A DNA stretch of 63,878 nt, filler included, from Reclinomonas americana ATCC 50394 (taxonomy: Eukaryota), in the NCBI GenBank assembly GCA_048213135.1. It is 7 parts of 3 records of this genome, joined end to end, with 100 filler letters (N's around TTAATTAATTAA, not from the genome) between each part and the next. Parts side by side here need not be neighbours in the genome. Positions count along the whole stretch, not along the records: positions 2,231 to 21,482 come from PS015447.1; 6 more parts are not named here. One strand, 5' to 3'. Of this stretch, positions 4,696 through 63,823 are shown in pieces. Made by a program: the position numbers and the translations under genes. The notes beneath the pieces are model-generated. The model was given only the letters and a program-made list of their open reading frames with translations. It was not told where the DNA came from and ran no database searches. Every line of letters begins with the position of its first letter. The stretch's first letter is position 1.

Positions 4696-6999
4696 TTATG
4701 TGCACACGCTCTTGAAACCCATTCTTCCGCCAATCTCAAGGTCGTTGAGCACCTGCGCGCGTCCAGCCAGCGGTGTGAGTGCATGCAGAGAGTTACCGGC
4801 ATACACGAACACGCAACTGTACGAATTCCAGTGTACACCATGAGGCACGTGGAGGCGGCGATGAGGGAGCCGATGACGAGGACGACGGCGCTCTGCTTGC
4901 GGTACTTCTTCACCACGTAGCCAATGGCCATGTTGCCGATCAGAGCGGAGAAGAGACCGGCGAAAAAGTACACGATACCGAAACCGAGTGGCATGCGGCC
5001 GAGGCTGATGAACTGGAAGGTGGCCGACGAGGCGGTGAACCCCTGCAGCGTTTGTGCACAAGTGAGAGTCGCAGTGAATAAGGCCACAGACAGAAGAGGG
5101 CGCGGGACGGGACGCAACAATCATGAGCGCGGCGGTGGCCGAGGCCACTTGCGGATTGACGCCCAAGTACAACAGGATTGGACCCTTGATCATGCCGCCA
5201 CCAATGCCCAGCAGACCGGCGATGACTCCCGCAAACACCGAGAGAGCGGGAAGCACGAACAGATTGCGCCGTGTCCACTTGATGTCTGACGACTGCGTGC
5301 GCATGTCAGTTTGTGCTGCAAGACAGCAAAGAAAACACATCAACGCGACAAACCAGCGACGGATAGCCGATGCTTATCTGCACAATAACAACAGCACGCA
5401 TGTGAGGGTGGGGCAACAACAAAGGTCACAGTGACATGCGCAAGAACGCAACCTTCAGGTCATGCTCGCGGATGAGACGGCGGCCAACAAACCAGGTGAT
5501 GCCGACGAGGACCGGCACCGAGAGCAGCACGAGCACCCAGTACAGCGGACTGCAGCTGGCCACTCCAAGCACACTCGGTGCTGGTGTCGTGCCTCAGCAC
5601 ACAGCAAACGAACACATGCATGCGCGTGCAAGCCACAACGCACCTCCGTGACCGCCCTTGAGCATCATCAGAGTAAAGACCACCACCCACGAAATGCCGA
5701 GGAGCAGCAGCTTGTCCCACGGTGTCTTGCTCTCCTTGACCTTTAGTTTGGTGACTTGCGGGTTCTCCACTGCGGCGAGTGGTGCAGGTGAGCGGAGGAG
5801 AAAAAGTCCATTTCACCCCTCGTGCACACGCAACAAATGAGCGGCTCGTCGTCCGACAGATCGTCATCGTCGTCGGCGGTCGATGTGACCGACCCCGACG
5901 ACGCCAGCAGCTTCTTGCCGTCATTGGTGCCCTTCTTGGTGGCCACCACCTGCATCTCGGTCTCGGCCTTGGCACGAGCCGCGGCAGCCGTGCGTTCTGC
6001 CACCAACACCAATCAACCAACATCAGTGAACGATCGCGCAGAAGCGAGAGCAGCGCGCATGGAGCGGAGCAGCACCTTTGCGATGCAGCTGCACGCCCTT
6101 CTCGATGGTCTTCCACGCCGAGAAGCCCAGCACACCGAGCAGGAGAATAACGACGAGCCAGGTGGGGAACATGACGTTGAGGAAGACGCCGAGCGTGGTG
6201 CCGAGCAGTGTCGACGGCTCCAACACCAGTGCCGTTCCTGCACCACAACTCGCGGTCAGCAGAAGACCACCGTGCCTCCCTTCCCCAACACCACACGCAC
6301 GCACCATAATCGATGAGTGGGCGGTCGGCCTCGGGATGGCGCTGCCACACGTTGAGCGAAAAGTTCCCGATGGAACCACCAAAGATGGCCACGGTCGACA
6401 GCGCCACCGCCAGGCCCGTCGAGTACTGGCCCACCAGCAAGAAGATGGGAATGAACAGGCCTCCACCACCAATGCCACCGGCACCGGCAAACGCACCACC
6501 CACAAACATGCACTGTGTGACAGTCAGCAGCAATCGGAACACACGCCACCATTTTTGCTCGCAGCTTGCTCACCACCAGAGCCACAATATCGCGTGTGGT
6601 GAACGGCAGCAGTCGCTTCACATCGCACACGCCTGCGTAGCAGAGCTCCACGTTGGGGCAGTCATCGGCCACGTCTTCATCGCACAGGCTGTTTGTTAAC
6701 CCCCCATGAGAAGAATGCATGCTTAGTGATGACTCTGACACACACACCTGCAGACTGCGGTGTTGTTTGAGGCGCGACAAGGCATGTGATTGCAGTCGTG
6801 CCACGTGTTGCATGCGTCGCCTGCTGCACCGTCGCCCCACCCAACATCTGTTGATTGCACGCAAGTGTGAGTGAGAATGCATTCATGTGTGTGAGCGGAA
6901 GAATGCATGCATGCAACTGTCAGCATGCGCGACACTGATGATGCAGCATGCGGCGACGAGGATGAGGAGTACGGCCACGGTGTAGTGCCGTGGTGTCAT
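4696..6999 (-). CDS. Sulfite exporter TauE/SafE (TSUP) family membrane protein, multi-exon
   Basis: Two Gly-rich repeats, AGAGGIGGGGLFIPIFLL and AGLLGIGGGMIKGPILLYLGVNPQVASATAA, the RPLIDY motif, many TM segments and a signal-like N-terminus. Confidence 0.88.
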
Positions 7000-7136
7000 C
7001 GCCCTCTCTCTCTCACACAACAAGAAAAGGCAAGGGACGAGGACTGATTGTGATCACTCGTGATTGCTTTCATTCCGACGTTCAAAAATGAGGAGGGGGG
7101 TTGAATTAATAAGCGGGCGGTGGAAGAAAGAGGCGC

Positions 7137-8154
7137 TTAGCTGCGGGCAGCGTAGTACTCGTGCACCTTGGGGTGCGCGTGCGCCTTCTCGTGCACAGTC
7201 ATGAGGTGCGAGTAGCTGTCGGCAATGGTGGTGGGGATGTGGTCGAGGTTGCCCGACTGCATGCGCATCAAAAACAACAACATCAGCGACAGAAAGAAGG
7301 AAAGGCGGGAAGGAGGGTGGAGGCGTAGTATGCACCTTGATGGCGTCAATCGACTGCATAATGTACAGATCGGCGACGGTGATGTTCTCGCCGACGGCGT
7401 AGCCACTGCCCGTGGTGTTGAGCGCGAGGATCTCCTCCAGTCCGCGCAGCAGCGTGGGGATGTCCTTCGCGGCCAGCTCCTCGCGCATGGCCTTCTTCTT
7501 CTCCGGATCCTGCTCCTTGAACGACGGACCCATGCGGTAGCTGCAACATGCAACAACAATGGTGAGTCTCTCATGGAGGCCAAGCAAGAACACAGCCGTG
7601 TGCAACGCAACAAGAGGTCGTGGAACGCATCGAGCAGCTCGTCCACGCGCAGCTGGGCGAGGTCGTCGCTGGGGTACAAGCCCACCTGCTTGGCCACGTA
7701 TCTGCGCACCAAAAACAACACAAACAGTCAAAAACAAGAAAAAACGCGGAGAATTACATGCATTATTGCATGCATTGTCATCTCTCACTCACCGAGCAAT
7801 GGGGATGCTCTGCGTGTACTTGACGCCGTTCACCTACACAGTGTGCACAGCAGTGAGTATAATGCAGTGTGCGTGCACACACAGAGAGAGAGAGAGGAAG
7901 ACGCAACGTGCAGCTCGGGCAACGCATTGAAGCGCACCTCGCCGGCGGCCTTGCGGCGGCCAAACTCCTCAAAGGAGATGCGCTCTGTGTGCGTGCGCGC
8001 GCGCCTTCAGTGAGACACACACACAAAGAGAGAGAGAGGAGAGAGAAAAGAGTGGCAAACCATCCTCAAACGAGATGCCACCAATGTGGAACAGCAGGCG
8101 CGCAAGCTCAGCGCGGCCCGGGAACGGGAAGTAAGTCAACTTGTACTCAGCCAT
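7137..8154 (-). CDS. Glutathione S-transferase (sigma-like), copy 1
   Basis: MAEYKLTYFPFPGRAELARLLF...LPELHVNGVKYTQSIPIARYVAKQVGLYP...VGENITVADL...HPKVHEYYAARS* after splicing. Confidence 0.93.
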
Positions 8155-12500: not shown

Positions 12501-13763
12501 TCCTGCTGCACGAGCTGTGAGGAGCGCACGCCAGAGTCGACGGTGCCGTTCTTGTACTCGTGCAGGCGCGTGCGCAGCCGCTCATTCTCCGCCGTCAGCT
12601 CATCCACCTGCTTGCGCAGATGGTGCGCTTCGTCGGCGGCGTCATCGAGTTGTTCACGCAGATCAGCCGCCGACTCGGTGGCCACCGACAGCTGTAACCG
12701 GAGCGAGTCTTTCTCCTGGTAACTGTCCTCCAGCGCCAACTGCATCTCGGTGAGCAGGTCGCTGGAGACCGCCGCCGCCGCCGCCGCCCCCGCTACATCG
12801 GCATCATCGCGCCGAGCAGCACGCGCCGCCGTGAGCGCCTGCTGTAATTGCACAATCTGCCGACCACGCGCGCGATCAGTGCCGACGACACACTCGCGTC
12901 ACAGCACATGCAGCACACGCACCACGGCACGCTGTGCAGCCACCTCCTCGGCCAACAACTCAGCGCGTCGCGAGGATGACGATGACGACGACGGCGACGC
13001 ATCCGCTGCGGCTCGGCTCTGGATGACAATGAGTTCATCCATCGGAATAACATACAGCTCGACAGACAGCTGTCGACACGCACCGGACTCTTGGCCGCAC
13101 CCCCGGCTGCCGCGGACTTTTGCCGCGATCCACTACCAGCACCTTGCGCTACGCAAAAGAGCAAAAAAGCAGGCAGGCCGTGTGAGCATACGCGCCACTC
13201 AGGGGGAAGCAATCGAACAAAACCCACCCTGGCCCATCTTTCTTCGCAAGTACTCGACCACCGCCGTGCGCCCGTGCTTCTCGGCCGTATCCAACGCCGT
13301 CTTGCCCTTGTTGCTACGCGCATTCAGCAGCGACACACCGTGATTACGCACGAGGTACTTGACAACATCGAGGTGGCCGCACGAGGCCCCGAGATGCAAC
13401 GCCGTCTTGCCCTTGTCGGTGGCGCGCATCACCAGCTGCGGCCGCTCTCGACACAAGTACTCCACTGCAGCAGTGTGCCCATTGGAGGCCTGCCCCCACA
13501 CAGACACCAGTGAGAACGCAAGCACACAACGCAGTGAGAGAGACACAGAAACACACCGCACGATGCAATGCTGTTTGACTATACTTGTCCATGCTGCGCA
13601 ATCATCACATGTGAGCAACAGTGAGAGAAGACGCGATGAGTGGCACGACACGCACCTCTCCAGCACCGCCTTGCCATGCTCACGCGCCAGAGCTCGCAGC
13701 TGCTCAACGTTCCCATCGCGCCCAGCAACACGCACTTGCCGACCTCTACAAAACACACTGTTC

Positions 13764-13802
<39 letters not shown>

Positions 13803-13836
13803 CATGATAGAGAGGGAGACGCAACACTGAGGCCAT
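9508..13836 (-). CDS. Ankyrin repeat + coiled-coil + IRAK/Pelle(RLCK)-like kinase + C-terminal RING finger protein (spans two N gaps)
   Basis: ANK repeats (GKTALHLGASCGHLDVVKYLV), coiled coil at about 12360-12860, kinase motifs (EGGQAAVYRG, VVVK, HRDIKPDNIL, DLGIA, ADVYSLGLVLMQLFTGK) and a RING end (PCSHQVLCHSCA...CPLCRRTI); likely ATG at 13836. Confidence 0.75.
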
Positions 13837-13973
13837 CCTCTCTCACAGTCAACTATGTCGGATAATCAGATCCGACAACACAATGGAATGGATCTTCGTT
13901 TATACGCGACGCTCGCCTTTGTTCATTACACGTCTTTCTCTCTTCTCTCATGCTTTCTACAGGAATGTGCTGA

Positions 13974-14288
13974 TTACAACTTGGAGACCATCATATCGAC
14001 GAGCAATCGTCGCCACACGGGTTCGGGGAGACCGCGCGCACGCAGGCGCTCAGCAATCTCCTGCTTCAACTCGGTGGGAAGCAGGCGCACAGGCCCACAC
14101 TCTTGCACGCTCTCGCCTTGTGTCACTGGTGCGGAGGATGACGAGGAGGCAGCGTCATTGTCATTGTGCAGCTCGCGAAGGATCTCTGAGGCCGCTGGAA
14201 ATGCTGCGCGCGTGTCTCTCTGTGAGTGAGTGTGAGACTGAGGGGAAGCGCAGTGTGACAGACCAAACGCTGGCCGCTCCTCTGTCAT
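13974..14288 (-). CDS. Small hypothetical protein (~90-104 aa), head-to-head with the secretin-like gene
   Basis: ORF MTEERPAF...AFPAASEILRELH...LLPTELKQEIAERLRARGLPEPVWRRLLVDMMVSKL*, with a probable short intron near 14217-14263. Confidence 0.5.
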   Translation of the reverse strand: MTEERPAFGLSHCASPQSHTHSQRDTRAAFPAASEILRELHNDNDAASSSSSAPVTQGESVQECGPVRLLPTELKQEIAERLRARGLPEPVWRRLLVDMMVSKL

Positions 14289-14328
14289 GCATTCGCCAGA
14301 GACAATCGCAATGAGTCACTGCTTGAGA

Positions 14329-15052
14329 ATGGCGTGGGGTGAGCGCGCGTCTTCTCTCTTTCTCCACCTTCGCTTGCTCCACTCACTTGTGTGCGTGTGT
14401 CTGTGTGTGTGCACAAAGATCGTCGCAACACACGCAATCCATCGCTGTATGACACGCGCGCCCTGATGGACCCTCAGTTGCGAGCGTGTCTTCCACTCGC
14501 TCACTCGTTGCACACTGTCTCTCTCACACGCACACCCTCACAGAGCACCATATGTCGCACAGCAGCGCGACCGGTACACCAACATGTTTGATCCACGGTT
14601 GCGTTCCCGCTCGCTTTCTCTTCTGCTCTCTCTCTCTCTCGCTCACTCTTTTGCACTCTTGCAGGAGTCGCTACTTTGAGGACTTCCCGTACCGCGAGCG
14701 GGCGACGTACTCTCGCGGCTCGGCCCTCGGCAATCCCGATTTCGGCAACTTCCGCTTCCGCAAGGGCTACTCGGCCGAGCTCACGCTGCGCGACGGCGAA
14801 ACGGCCATGTTGTCGGGCGACTCGCGCAGCAAGTCGTACCGCACGCACTACTCGCCCGAGTACCGCTCCTCGTTCTTCTACTCGTGGCTCGGCAAGCTGA
14901 TGCGCCTGCTCTGGCTCGATCGCCTGTTCGGCTTGCATGTCGACACGGTCAAGCATGTCCGCACGCGATCGTATGTGTTTGTCACCGCGCGCATCCTCCC
15001 CGATGCTGCTACGGCCACAGCAGCGCCTTCGCAAGCCTCCGAAGTCTCATAA
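14329..15052 (+). CDS. Secretin-domain (GspD/GspD-like) protein, 169 aa; exons 14329-14338, 14419-14476, 14544-14597, 14665-15052
   Basis: GT-AG splicing gives one continuous ORF. The C-terminal part SAELTLRDGETAMLSG...SWLGKLMRLLWLDRLFG...VRTRSYVFVTARIL follows the secretin consensus TxVxVxDGETxVLGG...PxLGxIPxLGxLF...RxELLIFITPRII. Confidence 0.72.
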
Positions 15053-15211
15053 ACATCGGTCGAAGTTGTCCGGTCCGTCCGTCTTCATCGCGTCCGTCGT
15101 CGCTTGTCTCCATCCCGCGCTCGCGCACTCCCCGCTGTCTGTGTCTGTTCCCGCACCTCCACTTGTGTGGCTGGTGGTGGCGAGCACAGAGCACAAGAGA
15201 AGAGAAGAAAG

Positions 15212-18146
15212 ATGGGCACCAAGGGTTCGAAAGCCTCGCCCGACCTCAACTACTACACGCCGACTGGCCTCTACCCGTCGTGCCCGTGGGATGACAAGCA
15301 GGTCAAGTCTCTCTCTCTCTCTCTTCCTCCGTCACACGCACGCACACGAATAGGAGCTGAAAAAACTCCACGCGCACCTCACACACAGGTAAAGAAGCTG
15401 GTCACTCGTCAGCGTGTGGCGCCGCGGTGGCCTGGCAAGCAGGAGCGCTCAGCAGAGGCGGGCGAGGAGTGTCCCATTTGCTATCTCGTTGCGTGGTGGA
15501 ATGACTTCTGAGTGCGCGCGCGCGCGGACATCTCGCTCTCCGGGCTCCGGCGTTTTCGCGCACGCCATTCTCTCTCTCTCTCTTTCTGTGTGTGCATTGT
15601 GCGTGTGAGTGTCGTCTCTCTTGTGGTGTCTTGTCAATGTGCGCATGTGCAAAAAAAAGGTGCGGTTGCGAATGATCTCTGTTGCGCGTTCTCCGTCTTC
15701 GGCGCATCAGTGTCATCATTATCAATCGAGAATAGTCACTGGCCACACTCATTGCACATCTCACTCACTTCATTCTTCATCTTGCAGGCGTATCCAGCGC
15801 TCAACACATGCACGTGCTGTCGGCAGACGCTGTGCACTGGTCAGTCAGTGTGTCTTGTCTCTGTCTGATTCGTGAGTGCGTGTGCGTGCTCATTTGGCGG
15901 TGTTGGTGGCGGCGCAGAGTGCTACTTGCAAGTGAAGAGCCCGACGTATCCTGCGGCCTCCGAGTGCCCGTTCTGCAAGAAGCGGAACTTTGACGTCAAG
16001 TACTTTGGCGTGCGAGCGCTGGAGGAGCGAGTGAAGGAGGAAGAGGTCGGAACCTCGATCTCTCTCTCTCTCTCTCGCTTACAGTGGTGATGGCGTTTCT
16101 TATTTGGTGTTTTGTGTGCAGGAACTGTTGCGAGTACAGGAGCTGCAGCGCAAGGCGCGTGAGTTGCAGGAGGAGGAGCGGCAGCGGAAGCGCGCCCAGT
16201 CACTACGCTCCAGTGCGAGTCCTGTGGCCGGTGTTGCGGGTTCGCCGGCCTCGGTGGGCAGTGCCGATGCCTCTTTTGATCCCACCGAGTTTGGTTTCTC
16301 CAGTCGCGAGGGCTACGAAGCGGGTGCGTAGACACCGTCCTCGAGACGTGCTGTGCACTCCATTGCGCTCACACGATTGGTATGACACACGCAGCACGGA
16401 ACGCGGCACAAAGTGTGCGAGTGCCGCCGCCGGGCATTATTGAGATTGGTGGGCGCTCACGACGCCACCGCTCGCACCGGGAGCACTCGGGTGGTGGCGG
16501 CAGCGGCAGCCGCTCCCATCGACACTCGTCTCGCCGTGCCTCGCGCGATGCAGTGGTGCGTTGTTGTTGTTTGCCGGTGCTGACTTGGTCCTTCCCCCAT
16601 CACCAGGAATACTCATGCTGGTGTGTGTGTGTGTGTGTGTGTGTGTTGTCGCGTCGGCAGCAGCAACAGCAGGCGGATGATGTGATGCAACTCTCATTCA
16701 ATGTCGGTGATTATATTCCCGAGAGCCTGCGTGACATGGCGCGCACGTTGCCGACAGGCATGGATGTGGACTACGAATCTGCCATGCTCTCCGAAGCCAT
16801 TCGCCTGTCCATCTTGGCGGCGCAAGAGGACGCTGCTCGTACCGAACAGCAGCAACAACAGCAACAGCAGCAACAACAACTGGCGGAGGGCTCTGCGGAG
16901 CTGCAATTACAGTCGCCGCAATTGGAGTCGGAGAAGGCCGTGCGAGTGCGAAAGGAGGAAGAGGAAGACGACGAGGACGATGGTAGTCACATTTTTGGTG
17001 GTGACGCAGTTACGCGGGCAATTGCACAGAAACTGTCGTCGAGGGACGATGAATCGTTGACGCGGTTACGACGGGGCGATACTGGCGCGCCGAGCGACGA
17101 GCAGCACGTGGATGCAATGTTCTATTTGCGAGCCGTCGCGGCGGCGCATCAGGCGGCAGAGGCCGCACGACACCCAGGTATGGATGGACCGCTGTCATTC
17201 TTGCCGGAGATGTGCGTACGTGTTGACTGTATTTCTTATGCAGCCGTGGTCACCATGCCGTCGGCATCGCCGCTTGCTGAATCACCGCTTGATGCGGCCA
17301 CAATGCCGGGATCCGCAGGCGCTCTTGCTGTTGCTGTTGCGTTTGCCTTGTGCGCGCGGGCAACCGTCTTTCCATTTCTCACACACTCTGCAGGAGAAGC
17401 TCGATGGCCCGGCTTATGGCGGCGACGAGGCAGGCTCGTCGCTGTCGAATTCACCACGCGACAGCACGGCTCGCCTGCGGTCGGCCAGTCTGTCGTCGCA
17501 GTCGACCAAGCCGAAGGCCGGTCTGTTGGGCACCATGTCGCAGGAAATCACCTCGTCGTCGCCAACCTCGGAGGGTCTGACGACGGGCAAGGAGGATGGG
17601 GAGCACTCACCAAAGGGTGCGTCGGGCTTCACTGTGCCTGGTCTGGCCGACGATTTTGGTGTGGTCGACGAGGACATGGGCGATCGGGATGCGGTACGTG
17701 TGTGTGTGCGTGTGCGTGCGCGTGTGCGATGCTGTAACTCACCGGTGTCATTCCGCCGAACAGCGCGAGGAGCTGCCTCTTAGTGGCCTGTTGATGTCGC
17801 AGAATCCGGCCGTGATGACTCTGCCTCCCACTGGTCGTCGGAGAAGTAGCAGCACGTCTCCGATTGCTGAGCGACGGACGGGAAAACTGGAAGAGGGTTC
17901 GCTTCGCCGTTTCTTCTTTTTCTCGTCGTGCGGCTTCGCGTGCGCTCACCGTGTGTGACAGGTGTCGCCGCCTCGTCAGCATCTTCGTCAACCCCGCCAC
18001 CACCACCACCACCACTGCCACCCGGTGCCTTGCGGCCCAGTGCCAGTGTGGAAGGCGGTGCTGCTGCCCACGGTAGCGACGATGAAGAGGAGGACGAGGA
18101 GGCCATTCTTGCGCTGGCAATCGCCATGTCGCTGCGTGAATCATGA
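15212..18146 (+). CDS. DA2/GW2 (Sip5)-like RING E3 ubiquitin ligase with UIM-like motifs
   Basis: MGTKGSK...PTGLY...VKKLV...APRWPG...ECPICYLAYPALNTCTCCRQTLCTECYLQVK...CPFCK, followed by a coiled coil; UIM-like MLSEAIRLSI and ILALAIAMSL. Confidence 0.85.
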
Positions 18147-20197: not shown

Positions 20198-21312
20198 TTA
20201 GTTCATGCGGCGGATCAGCGAGTTGATGTACTCCTCGCGGTTGCCGGCATCGCCACCCTCCACAAAGTGAGTCTTCTTGTAGCTGAAGCCACCACGGGGG
20301 GAGTTGAGCTTGAACGGCCACAGGAAGTTGGAGCAGCGAGTGAAGTTGGGTCCCACAGTGACCAGCTCGTGAATGAGGTCCTCGACAGACTGGATGCCGA
20401 ATGAGCCCAGTGCCTTGTCGATGATGGAGTTGTCGGTGAGCGGCACGCGCTGCTTGTTGACCTTGAAGTAGCCGCGCTTGTAGACGAGCTCGCGGACGGT
20501 CTTGAGGTTGGGGTAGCCGTACGCAATGTAGGGCTCGACCAGGCGCAGCATCTTGAGAGTGGACTTGTTGACCTTGATGAGCACGGCAGTGTTGATCTGG
20601 CGCAGGCGCAGCAGCTGCAGGATCTTGCGCTGCTTGGGTGGCACACCAATCAGACCGCGGATGCGGACGACAATCGCCAACTTGGCATCGTCCTCCTTGT
20701 AGACGTTGCCGCCGCGCTTGGCCACACGGCGCAGCTGGATCTTCTGTTGCTCCACCTGGCGGTACTCCTTCACATACTGCTCAGCCTTCTTGAAGATGGC
20801 CTTTCGCTTCTGCTTGCGCTCCTATTGTGCGGCAAACGAGCAATCACGCACGTGTTAAAAACTCAAATCACCATGCCATGCGTTTCTCTCCCCTCTCTCA
20901 CTCCTCACCTTCTTCTGTGCGACAGCAGCCTTCGTGCGGCGCTCAGTGAGCTTCTTGAGGGTGGCGATCTTCTTCGCGTATGAAGCGGGGACGGGTCTGC
21001 ACACCAAAAGAGAGAGAGAGAGCAATCAGTACATCATGACACCAGTCAGTCCACGCCCCCTCTTTCATGCTCGACACTGTCTCCCACCCACTTCCACACA
21101 CAACAGCGCACACGAGCGGGAGAGGAGGGGAGAGGGCGGGGGGAAGAGAGCGGGCATGTGCATGCGCGCATGTCATGTGGGGGCGCCATCGACACACGCA
21201 CAAGCACACACACAAGACGCGACCACACACGCTGTCTGTCTCCACAATATACATTCGCTGCTATGCTTGTGTGCGTGTGTGCGACGGAAACGACGGATAC
21301 GCACCCCGACAT
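20198..21312 (-). CDS. RPL7: 60S ribosomal protein L7 (uL30)
   Basis: [10 protein letters not shown]...[12 protein letters not shown]...[24 protein letters not shown]...[11 protein letters not shown]...[23 protein letters not shown]; first exon ATGTCGGG at 21312. Confidence 0.96.
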
Positions 21313-27457: not shown

Positions 27458-28247
27458 TCAAGTCGACTCGACGTCGTCGTTCTCCCCCGCTGCTGCTGCT
27501 GGTGCTGCTGCTGGTGGCGCCACGCGGATACGCACTGCGAAATACTCGGGCGAGTGGGCGGAGGCGCTGGCCGGTCGTTCGTACGACACGGAGGGTGCGG
27601 CGCCCGAGTGGTAGGCACCAGGGTGGCGATTGTTGCTGCCGACACGCCTGCCGACAGTGGTGGCCTTCATCTTCTTCCCGACACTGATCTGCAAGTGCGC
27701 CAACTGCAGAGGCGGTGCCGTGGGCGACGTCGGCTCCACCCGTCGCGCCACACACTCCACATCGCGATCGGGGTGCGCCAATCGCGTGATACGCAGCAGC
27801 CACTCGTCGCTGTTGGCGCGCGAGCTGGACGGCTGCGGATGCTGGCCGCCCACAGCCGCCGCCGACATTACCCGGAACGCCGAGTGCGCACAGAACGGCG
27901 CACCGCCCACCACCATGCGATAGGCGCACATGGAGGGCTCCTCGACCGACAACAACTGCAACTGCTCCACGCCCTTGATGCACACAAACTCGACAGTGGA
28001 CTCACGCGCGCGACCATTGTCGCACGGCTGCCCGTGCGTGTACACTCGTGTGGTGCCCGCCGGCGACTTGCCCTGGGTGGCGCCATCGAACGTGCCCAGT
28101 CGATACACATCGCCTCCGTTGCGCTGCGTGATCTCACCCGTCATGCACACCTCGTACGTCCACCACCCAAACGTGGCCGTCGCACACAGTCGCGCCGGCA
28201 ACGACGACAGCAACTGCTGCGGTGTGCCCTTGTCTTCCGCCTTTTCT

Positions 28248-28279
<32 letters not shown>

Positions 28280-28665
28280 TTCAGGCTGTTCACCGCGTGC
28301 AGCGCCGACTGCTGTGCTGAACATGAACGCACACACAATGTCGACATCATCCTCCTCGCCTTCCTCACTCCACTGACACATGTCACCAAATGGTGAGCGA
28401 TGCAACAAACACAAACACACACACACTTCTCGCGCACCTCAAGTGCCGCATGCACAGTGTGCACACCACCACCACCACTGGTGCCATCCTGCTTGTCACC
28501 ACTGTTGCTGTTGTTGTCGTCTGTGATTTCAAAGTTGGCCAGTGCGCGCGAACCCTGCTTGCCTGCGCTCTGCTTGACAGGCATGAAGCGCGCGTGCACA
28601 GCAGCGACACCACCAATGACCAGCACAGTCACCAGCAGAACAACAAGGCAACTGCGTAGTCTCAT
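27458..28665 (-). CDS. OS-9/erlectin-like ER lectin (MRH/PRKCSH domain) with signal peptide
   Basis: Signal MRLRSCLVVLLVTVLVIGGVAA; GWWTYEVC...YTHGQPCDNGRARESTVEFVC...VEEPSMCAYRMVV...FC. Confidence 0.82.
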
Positions 28666-61866: not shown

Positions 61867-63823
61867 ATGCGCGTTGCCTTTTTCCATCCTGACTTGGGCA
61901 TTGGTGAGTGCAGTGAGTGTGAGAATGAGTGAGACTGATTTTCCCTCCACACACACGCACTCTCGTGAAAATCACTTGTCAGTCGCGTCGACACGTGGAA
62001 GTGTCCAAGTTGTTTGCTCAGTGAGACACTTGCTCTCACTCACACACACTCACAGACATGAGTGCGCACTCTGCTTCTCTTTGTGCGCTGTGCACTCTCT
62101 CACATTCTTTTCGCACATAATGTCTCTGCCAGTGAGCAGATGCACACTTGCACACATTCACACACTCACACATACACACACATTCATTCACACACACACA
62201 CACACATTCACTCTCTCACTTTACTGTCACACACATTCACTCTCTCTGACATACGCAACGCACATTCATTCACCCTCTCTTTCACCCCTCCTCCCTCCCT
62301 CCCTCCTCCTCTCTCCTCACCTCTCTCCCCATCTCTCTCACCACATCTCCCTCCCAAATTCGTTCGAAGAACATTCCCTCACCCGTTTTTCATTCACTCA
62401 TTCATTCCCTTCATCCCCTCCCTCCCCTCCCTCTCTCCCTTTCCCTCTCCCTTTCCCTGTGCGCAGGAGGTGCCGAGCGCCTCATTGTCGACGCCGCGGT
62501 GAGCCTTCGCGAGCGCGGCCACCACGTGGACATTTACACTGGATTCCACGACCCCACACGCTGCTTTCCCGAGACTCTGCCACCGCCGCCACTGTCCGCA
62601 CGACCGCCTTCACCTTCGTCTTCTCCTTCACCGACAACAACGCACATTCCAGTGCACGTGTGGTGCCCGCGATGGGTGCCGCGACACATCTTTGGTCGCT
62701 TCCACCTCCTCTTTGCCGTGCTGCGCATGCTGCTCGTCACCGTGCGCTTCTTGCTCACGTGCCAGCAGTGCCAGTACGATGTGTGCGTCGTTGATCAGGT
62801 GTCGGGCATTGTGCCGCTGCTGCGCTACGTCGGCCGCTGCCGTGTGCTCTTCTACTGTCACTACCCGGACATGCTGCTGGCGGAGCCGAGTGAGTGGTTC
62901 CTGGGACGTGTGTATCGGCGTGTGTTTGACGAGCTGGAGCGCTTCACCACGGCGTGTGCGCATCAGATTGTCGTCAACTCGCTGTTCACCAAGGAGACGC
63001 TGCAGCGTGTGATGCCGGCACTCGACTTTGACACCATCGACGTGCTGTATCCGCCCATTGACACGTCGCCGCCGTCGCCGGCGACGCGCAGCAGCAGCAA
63101 CAGCAGCAGAAGTTCGTCGAGAGACGACCTGGCGCAGATGAATGGCAACGGGCACGGTGCCGACAGGGGTAGGCGGCGAGCGGATAGCACCGGAAATAGT
63201 GGAGAGGTGACCATGGGCGCGGGCGTCGAGTCGGCCGTGTCGGGCATGCTGCGCTCGCGCAGTGGCTCGCTCGGCTCGCTGCCGAAGAGACCCTCGGACG
63301 ACGCACTAAGCGACGAGCACTTGCCGCCGCTACCCTTCCAGTTGCGATCTCCCCTCCCTCTCTCTCTTTCTTCGTGTTACGTCTTTGCCGCTGACAACAA
63401 GTGCCCAGCCCCGACGACAAGATCATCCTCTCCATCAATCGCTTCGAGCGAAAGAAGAATCTCCCACTGGCGGTGCGTGCACTCGAATTCTTGCGGAGGC
63501 AACTGGACGAGTCGCAGTTTGCCAATGTGAGGTTGGTGCTGGCTGGCGGCTACGACTCGCGGCTACCCGAGAACGTGGAGCACTACGAGGAGCTGCAGGC
63601 GTCGGTGCATCGGCTAAACCTCGATCACCACGTCACGTTCCTGCGCAATGTCTCGGAGAGCGAAAAGTTGCGATAAGCACTATATTTGTCGTGTGCCTGC
63701 CGTGCGCCTCTGTTCTCTCACCCGCACAAAACAGGCGACGCCTACTCGATCGGTGCTTGTGCGTGCTGTACACGCCTTCGAATGAGCACTTTGGCATTGT
63801 GCCTATCGAGGCCATGTGGGCGG
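61867..63823 (+). CDS. ALG2: Alpha-1,3/1,6-mannosyltransferase ALG2 (3' truncated by window end)
   Basis: [81 protein letters not shown]. Confidence 0.95.

What the first reader, a model, noticed from the sequence alone, without database searches (positions are those of the whole stretch)
14329..15052. Intron-containing eukaryotic gene for a bacterial-type secretin (GspD-like): candidate mitochondrial type II secretion system pore component
Seen: four exons with GT-AG introns splice to a 169-aa protein, MAWDRRNTRNPSLYDTRALMDPQAPYVAQQRDRYTNMFDPRSRYFEDFPYRERATYSRGSALGNPDFGNFRFRKGYSAELTLRDGETAMLSGDSRSKSYRTHYSPEYRSSFFYSWLGKLMRLLWLDRLFGLHVDTVKHVRTRSYVFVTARIL... It keeps the secretin signatures in order (xDGETxxLxG, the amphipathic LGxxxxLxxLF helix and the final xFxTxRI strand) but has no periplasmic N-domains and seems to lack the middle beta-hairpins. 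Established: secretins are outer-membrane pores of bacterial T2SS/T3SS/T4P, and split, nucleus-encoded, mitochondrion-targeted Gsp homologs are reported only from a few protist lineages (jakobids, heteroloboseans, malawimonads, hemimastigotes). Inference: this is a GspD or GspD-like subunit of an endosymbiont-derived mitochondrial secretion system, and the host belongs to or extends that set of lineages. Introns and eukaryotic neighbours argue against bacterial contamination.
Basis: partly seen in the sequence, partly recalled or inferred. Interest (0 to 1): 0.9.

Follow-up and report, generated by a model that had tools for sequence, protein, structure and literature searches.

The report
Known jakobid mitochondrial secretin-like gene GspDL
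This four-exon nuclear gene encodes a short protein derived from the tail end of a bacterial secretin, and the same protein was published in 2021 as the Reclinomonas americana GspDL component of the proposed mitochondrial type II secretion system, so the finding is real but not new.

Summary
Exons 14329-14338, 14419-14476, 14544-14597 and 14665-15052 (+), joined across three GT-AG introns (80, 67 and 67 nt), give a 510-nt frame and a 169-aa protein. By eye, this protein is letter for letter the row "Reclinomonas americana, GspDL" in Supplementary Data 1 of Horvathova et al. 2021 (PMC8134430). Its Naegleria gruberi homologue, XP_002676354.1, is GspDL in the same table and is marked present in the mitochondrial proteome.

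The secretin link is real but weak:
- Pfam, a profile search of PDB sequences, BLASTP, Foldseek and VIA-align all found nothing.
- A profile-profile comparison aligned residues 73-161 with the last ~40% of the bacterial secretin domain (probability 86%, P 5e-6).

The neighbouring genes are eukaryotic: dynein heavy chain, ribosomal uL30 and ankyrin.

The host belongs to the lineages already known to carry this system and does not extend them. Verdict: already known, low interest.

The parts
14329..14338 (+). Exon 1: ATG and first 10 nt of the CDS (M-A-W plus the first base of D4)
   Evidence: The donor GTGAGC follows directly.
14339..14418 (+). Intron 1, 80 nt, GT...AG
   Evidence: GC 0.55, pyrimidines 0.65.
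14419..14476 (+). Exon 2, 58 nt
14477..14543 (+). Intron 2, 67 nt, GTTGCG...ACAG
14544..14597 (+). Exon 3, 54 nt
14598..14664 (+). Intron 3, 67 nt, GTTGCG...GCAG, 81% pyrimidine
14665..15052 (+). Exon 4, 388 nt, residues 41(part)-169 and stop TAA. It holds the whole conserved core of the family.
   Evidence: This exon (P0001) was the query.
14759..14998 (+). Secretin-like region, residues 73-152: strand with DGET..L.G, amphipathic helix, final strand Y-V-F-V-T-A-R-I-L
   Evidence: hhalign against 32 bacterial secretin domains: probability 86%, P 5e-6, 76 columns, template positions 106-181 of 196.
14873..14914 (+). Amphipathic helix, residues 111-124: candidate counterpart of the secretin amphipathic helical loop
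   Evidence: Helical hydrophobic moment 0.58-0.62 in 11-residue windows. The AF2 model shows helices at P0001 residues 69-87.
14287..14313 (+). Two upstream in-frame ATGs (14287, 14311) with no stop before 14329. These are alternative starts that would add 14 or 6 residues.

Best explanation
This is the nuclear gene for GspDL ('GspD-like'), one of the proteins of the proposed mitochondrial type II secretion system (miT2SS) found in jakobids, heteroloboseans, malawimonads and hemimastigotes.

Shown here:
- The gene has four exons and three GT-AG introns.
- Its product reads the same as the published Reclinomonas americana GspDL.
- It lies among ordinary eukaryotic genes.
- The family is very small and very conserved.
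- Residues 73-161 align, at profile level, with the last ~40% of the bacterial secretin domain: the strand carrying the D-G-E/Q-T-V-V-L-G-G motif, the amphipathic helical loop, and the last barrel strand.

Taken from the literature, not tested here: N. gruberi GspDL co-fractionates with mitochondria. The sister protein GspD is imported into yeast mitochondria without membrane potential and forms a ~200 kDa urea-resistant complex in liposomes.

Inferred (I put this at about 0.5): GspDL keeps only the two outer-barrel strands and the membrane-inserting loop of a secretin. It has lost the gate hairpins and the N-domains. It sits in the mitochondrial outer membrane as a subunit of a reduced, possibly mixed GspD/GspDL ring, through which the GspG pseudopilus, driven by GspE and GspF, would push a still unknown substrate out of the intermembrane space.
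For: - Gene model and 169-aa product.
- Match to the published R. americana GspDL row: four peptides, one from the N-terminus and three from exon 4, each occurred once in Supplementary Data 1, all in that row. The printed row reads the same as the product.
- N. gruberi homologue P0006 = XP_002676354.1. It is labelled GspDL and flagged 'M' in the proteome column.
- Family size: 8 proteins at E <= 0.01 among 22 candidates in the 5.8-billion-protein index, 55-84% identical. In the 1.84-billion-representative library, 10 had E <= 0.001, and 2 of those are ankyrin-repeat false positives.
- Conservation: 31 invariant columns in 10 sequences.
- Secretin link: hhalign of 15 GspDL sequences against 32 bacterial secretin domains gave probability 86.1-86.6%, P 4.4-5e-6, score 42. 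GspDL residues 73-161 aligned to template positions 106-181 of 196.
- Controls for that comparison: reversed query 14.6; 200 column shuffles mean 12.0, sd 2.1, max 19.5; 200 shuffles of 8-column blocks mean 22.1, sd 4.2, max 41.2. None of the 400 reached the real score.
- Secondary structure: the AF2 model gives long strand, helices, long strand. The helical hydrophobic moment peaks at residues 111-124 and the beta moment at 63-72 and 138-142.
- Eukaryotic neighbours: dynein heavy chain, uL30, ankyrin, GST, glucosidase II beta-like and LRR.
- R. americana GspD and GspE rows are in the same table. The main text says all four core genes occur in R. americana.
- Literature on GspD behaviour and on GspDL.
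Against: Every ordinary test for a secretin failed:
- Pfam: 0 families at E <= 10 for exon 4, and 0 families at E <= 0.01 for N. gruberi GspDL and for P0017.
- NCBIfam: one meaningless alpha-amylase row at E 0.095.
- The GspDL profile against 177,635 PDB sequences: 0 hits at E <= 10.
- The same profile against 1.84 billion representatives: no bacterial secretin.
- BLASTP against E. coli GspD: best E 28.
- Foldseek against PDB: 0 hits at E <= 0.001. The top rows were the flagellar L-ring and beta-pore toxins, not secretins.
- VIA-align against 48,161 chains: 0 with Z >= 2.

Other weaknesses:
- The AF2 model is weak (pLDDT 61.8, pTM 0.32).
- The hhalign P value is for one chosen comparison, not a library search.
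- One block shuffle scored 41.2 against the real 42.0, so much of the score comes from a few short motifs.
- hhalign's placement of the helix needs an 11-residue insertion in GspDL, so the register there is uncertain.
- No prediction program in the paper's table gives R. americana GspDL a clear presequence.
- Nothing here or in the passages I read shows that GspDL itself enters a membrane, oligomerises or binds GspD.
Confidence: 0.85

Rival explanations
1. GspDL belongs to the miT2SS-associated gene set but is not a pore subunit. Having kept only the membrane-seeking tail of a secretin, it would act as an accessory factor, for example in targeting or assembly (as pilotins do for bacterial secretins) or as a cap or regulator of the GspD ring.
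For: It lacks the gate and inner-barrel part of the secretin domain. GspD alone formed a ~200 kDa complex in liposomes, so GspDL is not needed for that step in vitro (passages). The family also has a conserved stretch upstream (around N-P-D-F-G-N-F) with no secretin counterpart in the hhalign alignment.
Against: The eukaryotic GspD is truncated in much the same way, so truncation does not separate a pore-former from an accessory. The 2023 review draws both in the pore. No data on GspDL interactions were seen.
Confidence: 0.25
2. The resemblance to secretins is convergent or due to chance. On this view GspDL is a lineage-restricted protein of another fold that merely co-occurs with the Gsp genes.
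For: All sequence-to-profile and structure searches were blank. One block shuffle nearly matched the real hhalign score (41.2 against 42.0). Short motifs of the family also produced false hits on ankyrin repeats.
Against: Three motifs lie in the same order and at similar spacing as in secretins, giving P 5e-6, and 0 of 400 shuffles reached the score. The predicted strand-helix-strand pattern fits. The authors reached the same conclusion independently with HHpred/Phyre2. The gene shares its phyletic pattern with undoubted T2SS homologues.
Confidence: 0.1
3. The gene is bacterial contamination, or an untranscribed chance ORF pieced together from GT-AG sites.
For: None beyond the general risk of assembling short exons by eye. 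Exon 1 has only 10 nt.
Against: The spliced product equals a curated published protein. Three spliceosomal-type introns interrupt the frame. The neighbours are dynein, uL30 and ankyrin genes. The GspDL profile hit no bacterial protein among the 10 hits in 1.84 billion representatives.
Confidence: 0.01

Closest known systems
GspDL of the mitochondrial T2SS (Horvathova et al. 2021, Nat Commun 12:2947, PMC8134430): the R. americana, A. godoyi (KAF0852925.1), N. gruberi (XP_002676354.1) and N. fowleri (KAF0978588.1) entries
   Same: The product reads the same as the R. americana entry over all 169 residues. Exon 4 is 61-68% identical to the Naegleria and Willaertia proteins. The invariant core is shared.
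   Different: Nothing at protein level. The window adds only the gene structure (three introns, a 10-nt first exon, two alternative upstream ATGs) and the genomic neighbours. I did not see these in the passages or tables I read.
Eukaryotic (mitochondrial) GspD of the same system
   Same: [quoted passage not shown] Both were detected in N. gruberi mitochondria.
   Different: They are separate orthologous groups. GspD was recognised directly as a secretin homologue. GspDL is more divergent and was recognised only afterwards, from its phyletic profile. The experiments (import, liposome complex, yeast two-hybrid) were done on GspD, not GspDL.
Bacterial secretins (Pfam PF00263: GspD, PilQ, HofQ and others)
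   Same: The last part of the domain lines up: the strand with D-G-E/Q-T-V-V-L-G-G, the L-G-x-L-F type amphipathic loop, and the final hydrophobic strand ending I-F-I-T-P-R-I-I against V-F-V-T-A-R-I-L.
   Different: GspDL has no Pfam match. It lacks the first ~105 positions of the domain (gate and inner barrel), the N0-N3 domains and the S-domain. It carries an 11-residue insertion after the helix and has a conserved N-P-D-F-G-N-F segment of its own. It is 169 aa, against 400-900 aa for the bacterial secretins sampled. It is a spliced nuclear gene.

Membership tests
GspDL (miT2SS, Horvathova et al. 2021) | Orthology by sequence to the listed GspDL proteins | tested here: met
   The product reads the same as the R. 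americana row. E 5e-41 and 63% identity to N. gruberi XP_002676354.1, which the paper labels GspDL.
GspDL (miT2SS, Horvathova et al. 2021) | Restricted phyletic pattern: present only in Gsp-positive eukaryotes | tested here: inconclusive
   There were only 8 true hits among 1.84 billion representatives. All the named ones are Naegleria or Willaertia. The rest are unnamed contigs whose hosts I did not determine.
GspDL (miT2SS, Horvathova et al. 2021) | Co-occurrence with GspD, GspE, GspF and GspG in the same genome | not testable with these tools
   No whole genome is held for the window. From the paper: R. americana GspD and GspE rows, and the text states that all four are present.
GspDL (miT2SS, Horvathova et al. 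2021) | Mitochondrial localisation | not testable with these tools
   Only the N. gruberi orthologue has proteomic support. The paper's prediction programs give R. americana GspDL no clear presequence.
Secretin (Pfam PF00263) | Match to the family HMM at or above the gathering score (27.5 bits) | tested here: not met
   0 families at E <= 10 for exon 4. 0 families at E <= 0.01 for N. gruberi GspDL and P0017.
Secretin (Pfam PF00263) | Remote homology to the secretin domain at profile-profile level | tested here: met
   hhalign probability 86%, P 5e-6, 76 columns. 0 of 400 shuffles reached the score, although one block shuffle came close at 41.2. This was a single chosen comparison, not a library search.
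Secretin (Pfam PF00263) | Complete secretin domain with gate and inner-barrel hairpins | tested here: not met
   Only template positions 106-181 of 196 are matched. GspDL residues 1-72 have no counterpart.
Secretin (Pfam PF00263) | Periplasmic N-domains (Secretin_N, PF03958) | tested here: not met
   No Pfam hit, and the whole protein is 169 aa. In these eukaryotes the N-domains are separate GspDN1-3 genes.
Secretin (Pfam PF00263) | Secretin-like three-dimensional fold | tested here: inconclusive
   The AF2 monomer is weak (pLDDT 61.8). Foldseek and VIA-align found no secretin. An isolated hairpin taken out of a ring is a poor search object.
Secretin (Pfam PF00263) | Assembly into a multimeric membrane ring | not testable with these tools
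   No experiment on GspDL was seen in the passages read.

The most novel reading that the evidence does not exclude
GspDL and GspD, each reduced to two strands and an amphipathic loop, alternate in a mixed ring. This would form a thin, single-walled, gate-less barrel in the mitochondrial outer membrane: a minimal secretin architecture with no bacterial counterpart. The family-specific N-P-D-F-G-N-F segment of GspDL would stand in for the lost gate or dock the separate GspDN proteins. The evidence here neither supports nor excludes this. [quoted passage not shown]
Probability: 0.25. Interest if true: 0.55.

Novelty: already known. Interest (0 to 1): 0.12.

Why it matters
The miT2SS is a notable relic of the bacterial ancestor of mitochondria, and its pore is the least understood part. 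What the window adds is small:
- the intron-exon structure;
- two alternative upstream start codons;
- the compact, ordinary nuclear neighbourhood.

A by-product of the check is more useful. The secretin ancestry of GspDL is invisible to Pfam, HMMER and structure search. It rests on profile-profile similarity to about 76 columns. Its role as a pore subunit remains an inference that nobody has tested on GspDL itself.

Tried and rejected
- First exon model: exon 3 was one base off and the frame broke. Corrected.
- Whole-genome search for other Gsp genes: no genome is held for this window.
- Public sequencing runs for 14250-15150: none was listed, and no RNA holder was listed. The junctions therefore could not be checked on reads, and read laying was not used.
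- Complex prediction with four copies of residues 20-115 of exon 4: verdict 'no answer', score 0.00, and the alignment was not used by the tool. This is neither support nor evidence against.
- The search for homologous proteins on the E. coli GspD C-domain: the 120 listed hits were all at least 81% identical, too close to build a useful profile. I used 30 loci from 61 sampled Pseudomonadota genomes instead, plus E. coli GspD and HofQ.
- In one search, picking the longest ORF chose antisense frames in some GC-rich loci. I redid this by strand and position.
- P0018 and P0019 looked like distant relatives with repeats. They are ankyrin-repeat proteins matched through a short motif and were dropped.
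- Earlier notes of this scan: nothing on this genome, sequence or topic.
- A second copy in the window: tblastn found only the gene itself.
- Rfam at gathering threshold: 0 matches in the window.

Full report
**Observation.** The exons are 14329-14338, 14419-14476, 14544-14597 and 14665-15052 on the + strand. They are separated by introns of 80, 67 and 67 nt that begin GTGAGC, GTTGCG and GTTGCG, and all end in AG. Joined, they give a 510-nt frame with one terminal stop and a 169-aa product. My first attempt had one boundary a base off. The coding sequence is GC-rich at third positions (0.78) and the introns are pyrimidine-rich (0.65-0.81). Two further in-frame ATGs lie upstream at 14311 and 14287, with no stop until 14239. 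The start codon is therefore not settled by sequence alone.

**Identity.** Exon 4 alone (P0001, 128 aa) found 8 proteins at E <= 0.01 among 22 candidates in the 5.8-billion-protein index. They are 55-84% identical, and the named ones come from Naegleria gruberi, N. fowleri and Willaertia magna. Cluster look-up gave the N. gruberi protein as XP_002676354.1 and added N. lovaniensis.

A search of the literature library for 'miT2SS' or 'GspDL' returned Horvathova et al. 2021 (PMC8134430). [quoted passage not shown]

Four peptides from the window's product each occurred once in Supplementary Data 1. All four fell in the row 'Reclinomonas americana, GspDL, accession N.A.'. The sequence printed in that row reads the same as the product over its whole length, including the unconserved N- and C-terminal tails. 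The window therefore carries the GspDL gene of that species or of something very close to it.

The same table lists R. americana GspD and GspE. The main text says all four core genes (GspD, E, F, G) occur in R. americana. Of this paper I saw passages found by term search, part 1 of supplementary file 1, and passages of files 1 and 2. I did not see the whole text or the supplementary figures.

**Context.** I submitted 46 of the window's 225 stop-to-stop frames of 110 aa or more, plus a few shorter neighbours, to Pfam. Fourteen had hits at E <= 0.001. These were dynein heavy-chain motor domains (five frames between 39868 and 47338), ribosomal uL30/L7 (20201-20821, -), ankyrin repeats (13202-13852, -), GST_C, glucosidase II beta-like, LRR, a GT4 glycosyltransferase, NTP_transferase, and weak TauE and SOGA rows. 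This is an ordinary eukaryotic nuclear neighbourhood. No second GspDL copy is in the window.

**Is it really secretin-derived?** Ordinary tests say nothing.
- Pfam gave 0 families at E <= 10. It also gave none at E <= 0.01 for two other family members.
- NCBIfam gave one meaningless row.
- A profile of 10 family members found no PDB sequence at E <= 10.
- Against 1.84 billion representatives, the same profile found 10 proteins at E <= 0.001. Eight are family members and two are ankyrin-repeat proteins matched through a short repeated motif. No bacterial secretin appeared.
- BLASTP against E. coli K-12 GspD gave a best E of 28.
- An AlphaFold2 model from the 10-sequence alignment is weak (pLDDT 61.8, pTM 0.32). 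It shows a long strand, short helices and a second long strand.
- Foldseek found no PDB match at E <= 0.001. The top rows were the flagellar L-ring protein and beta-pore toxins, that is, other long hairpins.
- VIA-align found nothing with Z >= 2 among 48,161 chains.

I then built a bacterial secretin profile. PF00263 was sought in 61 genomes sampled across the phylum of a Brenneria genome, and 59 of the 61 had a match. From roughly 197 matches, the 30 loci returned were used. E. coli GspD and HofQ were added. Together these gave 32 domain sequences.

hhalign of a 15-sequence GspDL alignment against this profile gave probability 86.1%, P 5e-6, score 41.7 and 76 aligned columns. The GspDL alignment held the spliced window product plus 14 homologues, and hhalign kept 14 of the 15. 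GspDL residues 73-161 aligned to template positions 106-181 of 196. The aligned blocks are:
- R-K-G-Y-S-A-E-L-T-L-R-D-G-E-T-A-M-L-S-G against the strand carrying D-G-Q-T-V-V-L-G-G;
- W-L-G-K-L-M-R against the P-x-L-G-x-L-F loop;
- R-T-R-S-Y-V-F-V-T-A-R-I-L against K-T-E-L-M-I-F-I-T-P-R-I-I.

An 11-residue insertion in GspDL lies between the second and third blocks.

Controls:
- Reversed query: score 14.6.
- 200 column shuffles: mean 12.0, sd 2.1, max 19.5.
- 200 shuffles of 8-column blocks, which keep the motifs but not their order: mean 22.1, sd 4.2, max 41.2.

None of the 400 shuffles reached the real score of 42.0, but one block shuffle came within a point. The P value is also for one chosen comparison. 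I read this as moderate support. [quoted passage not shown]

Hydrophobic-moment profiles fit a strand / amphipathic helix / strand layout. The helical moment peaks at residues 111-124 and the beta moment at 63-72 and 138-142.

**How it likely works.** The following comes from the literature and was not tested here.
- The eukaryotic GspD is imported into yeast mitochondria independently of membrane potential.
- It keeps the amphipathic helical loop needed for secretin membrane insertion.
- It forms a ~200 kDa urea-resistant complex with liposomes.
- It interacts with GspDN1 in yeast two-hybrid assays.
[quoted passage not shown] My inference, at about even odds, is that GspDL is a wall subunit of a reduced, gate-less outer-membrane ring, probably together with GspD. 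The main rival, at about 0.25, is an accessory role in assembly or regulation. No experiment on GspDL itself was seen in what I read.

**Comparison and novelty.** The gene is a member of the GspDL family by the only criterion that can be tested here, which is sequence. It is not a member of Pfam Secretin by that family's own threshold, and it lacks most of the domain. It is best described as a secretin-derived fragment. A literature search for 2022 onwards on 'mitochondrial T2SS', 'mitochondrial type II secretion' or 'miT2SS' listed five papers. None, by title or abstract, reports new work on GspDL. Because the exact protein is already published under this name, the finding is already known.

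**Verdict.** Novelty: already known. Interest: 0.12.

Noticed in passing
window 13977-14315 (-): A 113-aa open frame on the opposite strand has its first Met codon at 14288. That is about 40 nt from the GspDL ATG at 14329, and it overlaps the alternative upstream ATGs of GspDL. It has no Pfam hit. If it is a real gene, the two share a very short divergent promoter region.
   Followed up: partly
window 15213-16090 (+): The next gene downstream starts 161 nt after the GspDL stop. It begins M-G-T-K-G-S-K, and later exons carry cysteine motifs (E-C-P-I-C-Y-L, C-C-R-Q-T-L-C, C-P-F-C-K). From memory this resembles a SIP5-like RING protein. Pfam found nothing on the two frames tried.
   Followed up: partly
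window 14477-14543 and 14598-14664: Introns 2 and 3 are both 67 nt and both begin GTTGCG, an unusual donor. Intron 1 begins with the more usual GTGAGC.
   Followed up: no
window 39868-47338 (-): Fragments of a dynein heavy chain gene (AAA_6, AAA_7, AAA_8, MT stalk, AAA_9) are broken up by N runs.
   Followed up: partly
window 20201-20821 (-), 13202-13852 (-), 7057-7788 (-), 27461-28438 (-), 62250-63527 (+): Ordinary eukaryotic genes lie here: ribosomal protein uL30/L7, an ankyrin-repeat protein, a GST C-terminal domain, a glucosidase II beta-like protein and a GT4 glycosyltransferase.
   Followed up: partly
window 6203-6294 (-): ARAGORN calls a 92-nt tRNA-Gln (CTG). It lies inside a long open frame with a weak TauE hit (5463-6569, -). 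Rfam at gathering threshold reports no tRNA there. It may be a false call or an intron-bearing tRNA.
   Followed up: no
whole window: There are 27 runs of N, totalling 5235 bases. Seven of them are pairs of 44-N runs separated by 12 bases, for example 2131-2174 and 2187-2230. These are gaps or masked stretches, and none touches the GspDL gene.
   Followed up: no
P0004 (163 aa) and P0009 (153 aa), unnamed contigs: The closest relatives of the window's protein (84% and 76% identity) come from short unnamed assemblies. P0004 carries an odd hydrophobic stretch just before the conserved core, which looks like an intron read through by a prokaryote-style gene caller. These are likely other jakobid-like organisms that carry GspDL.
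   Followed up: no
P0017 (172 aa), unnamed: This is the most divergent family member (E 1.5e-17 to the profile). The D-G-E-T motif is changed to S-G-R-T and the helix region is altered. It could help a more sensitive profile.
   Followed up: no
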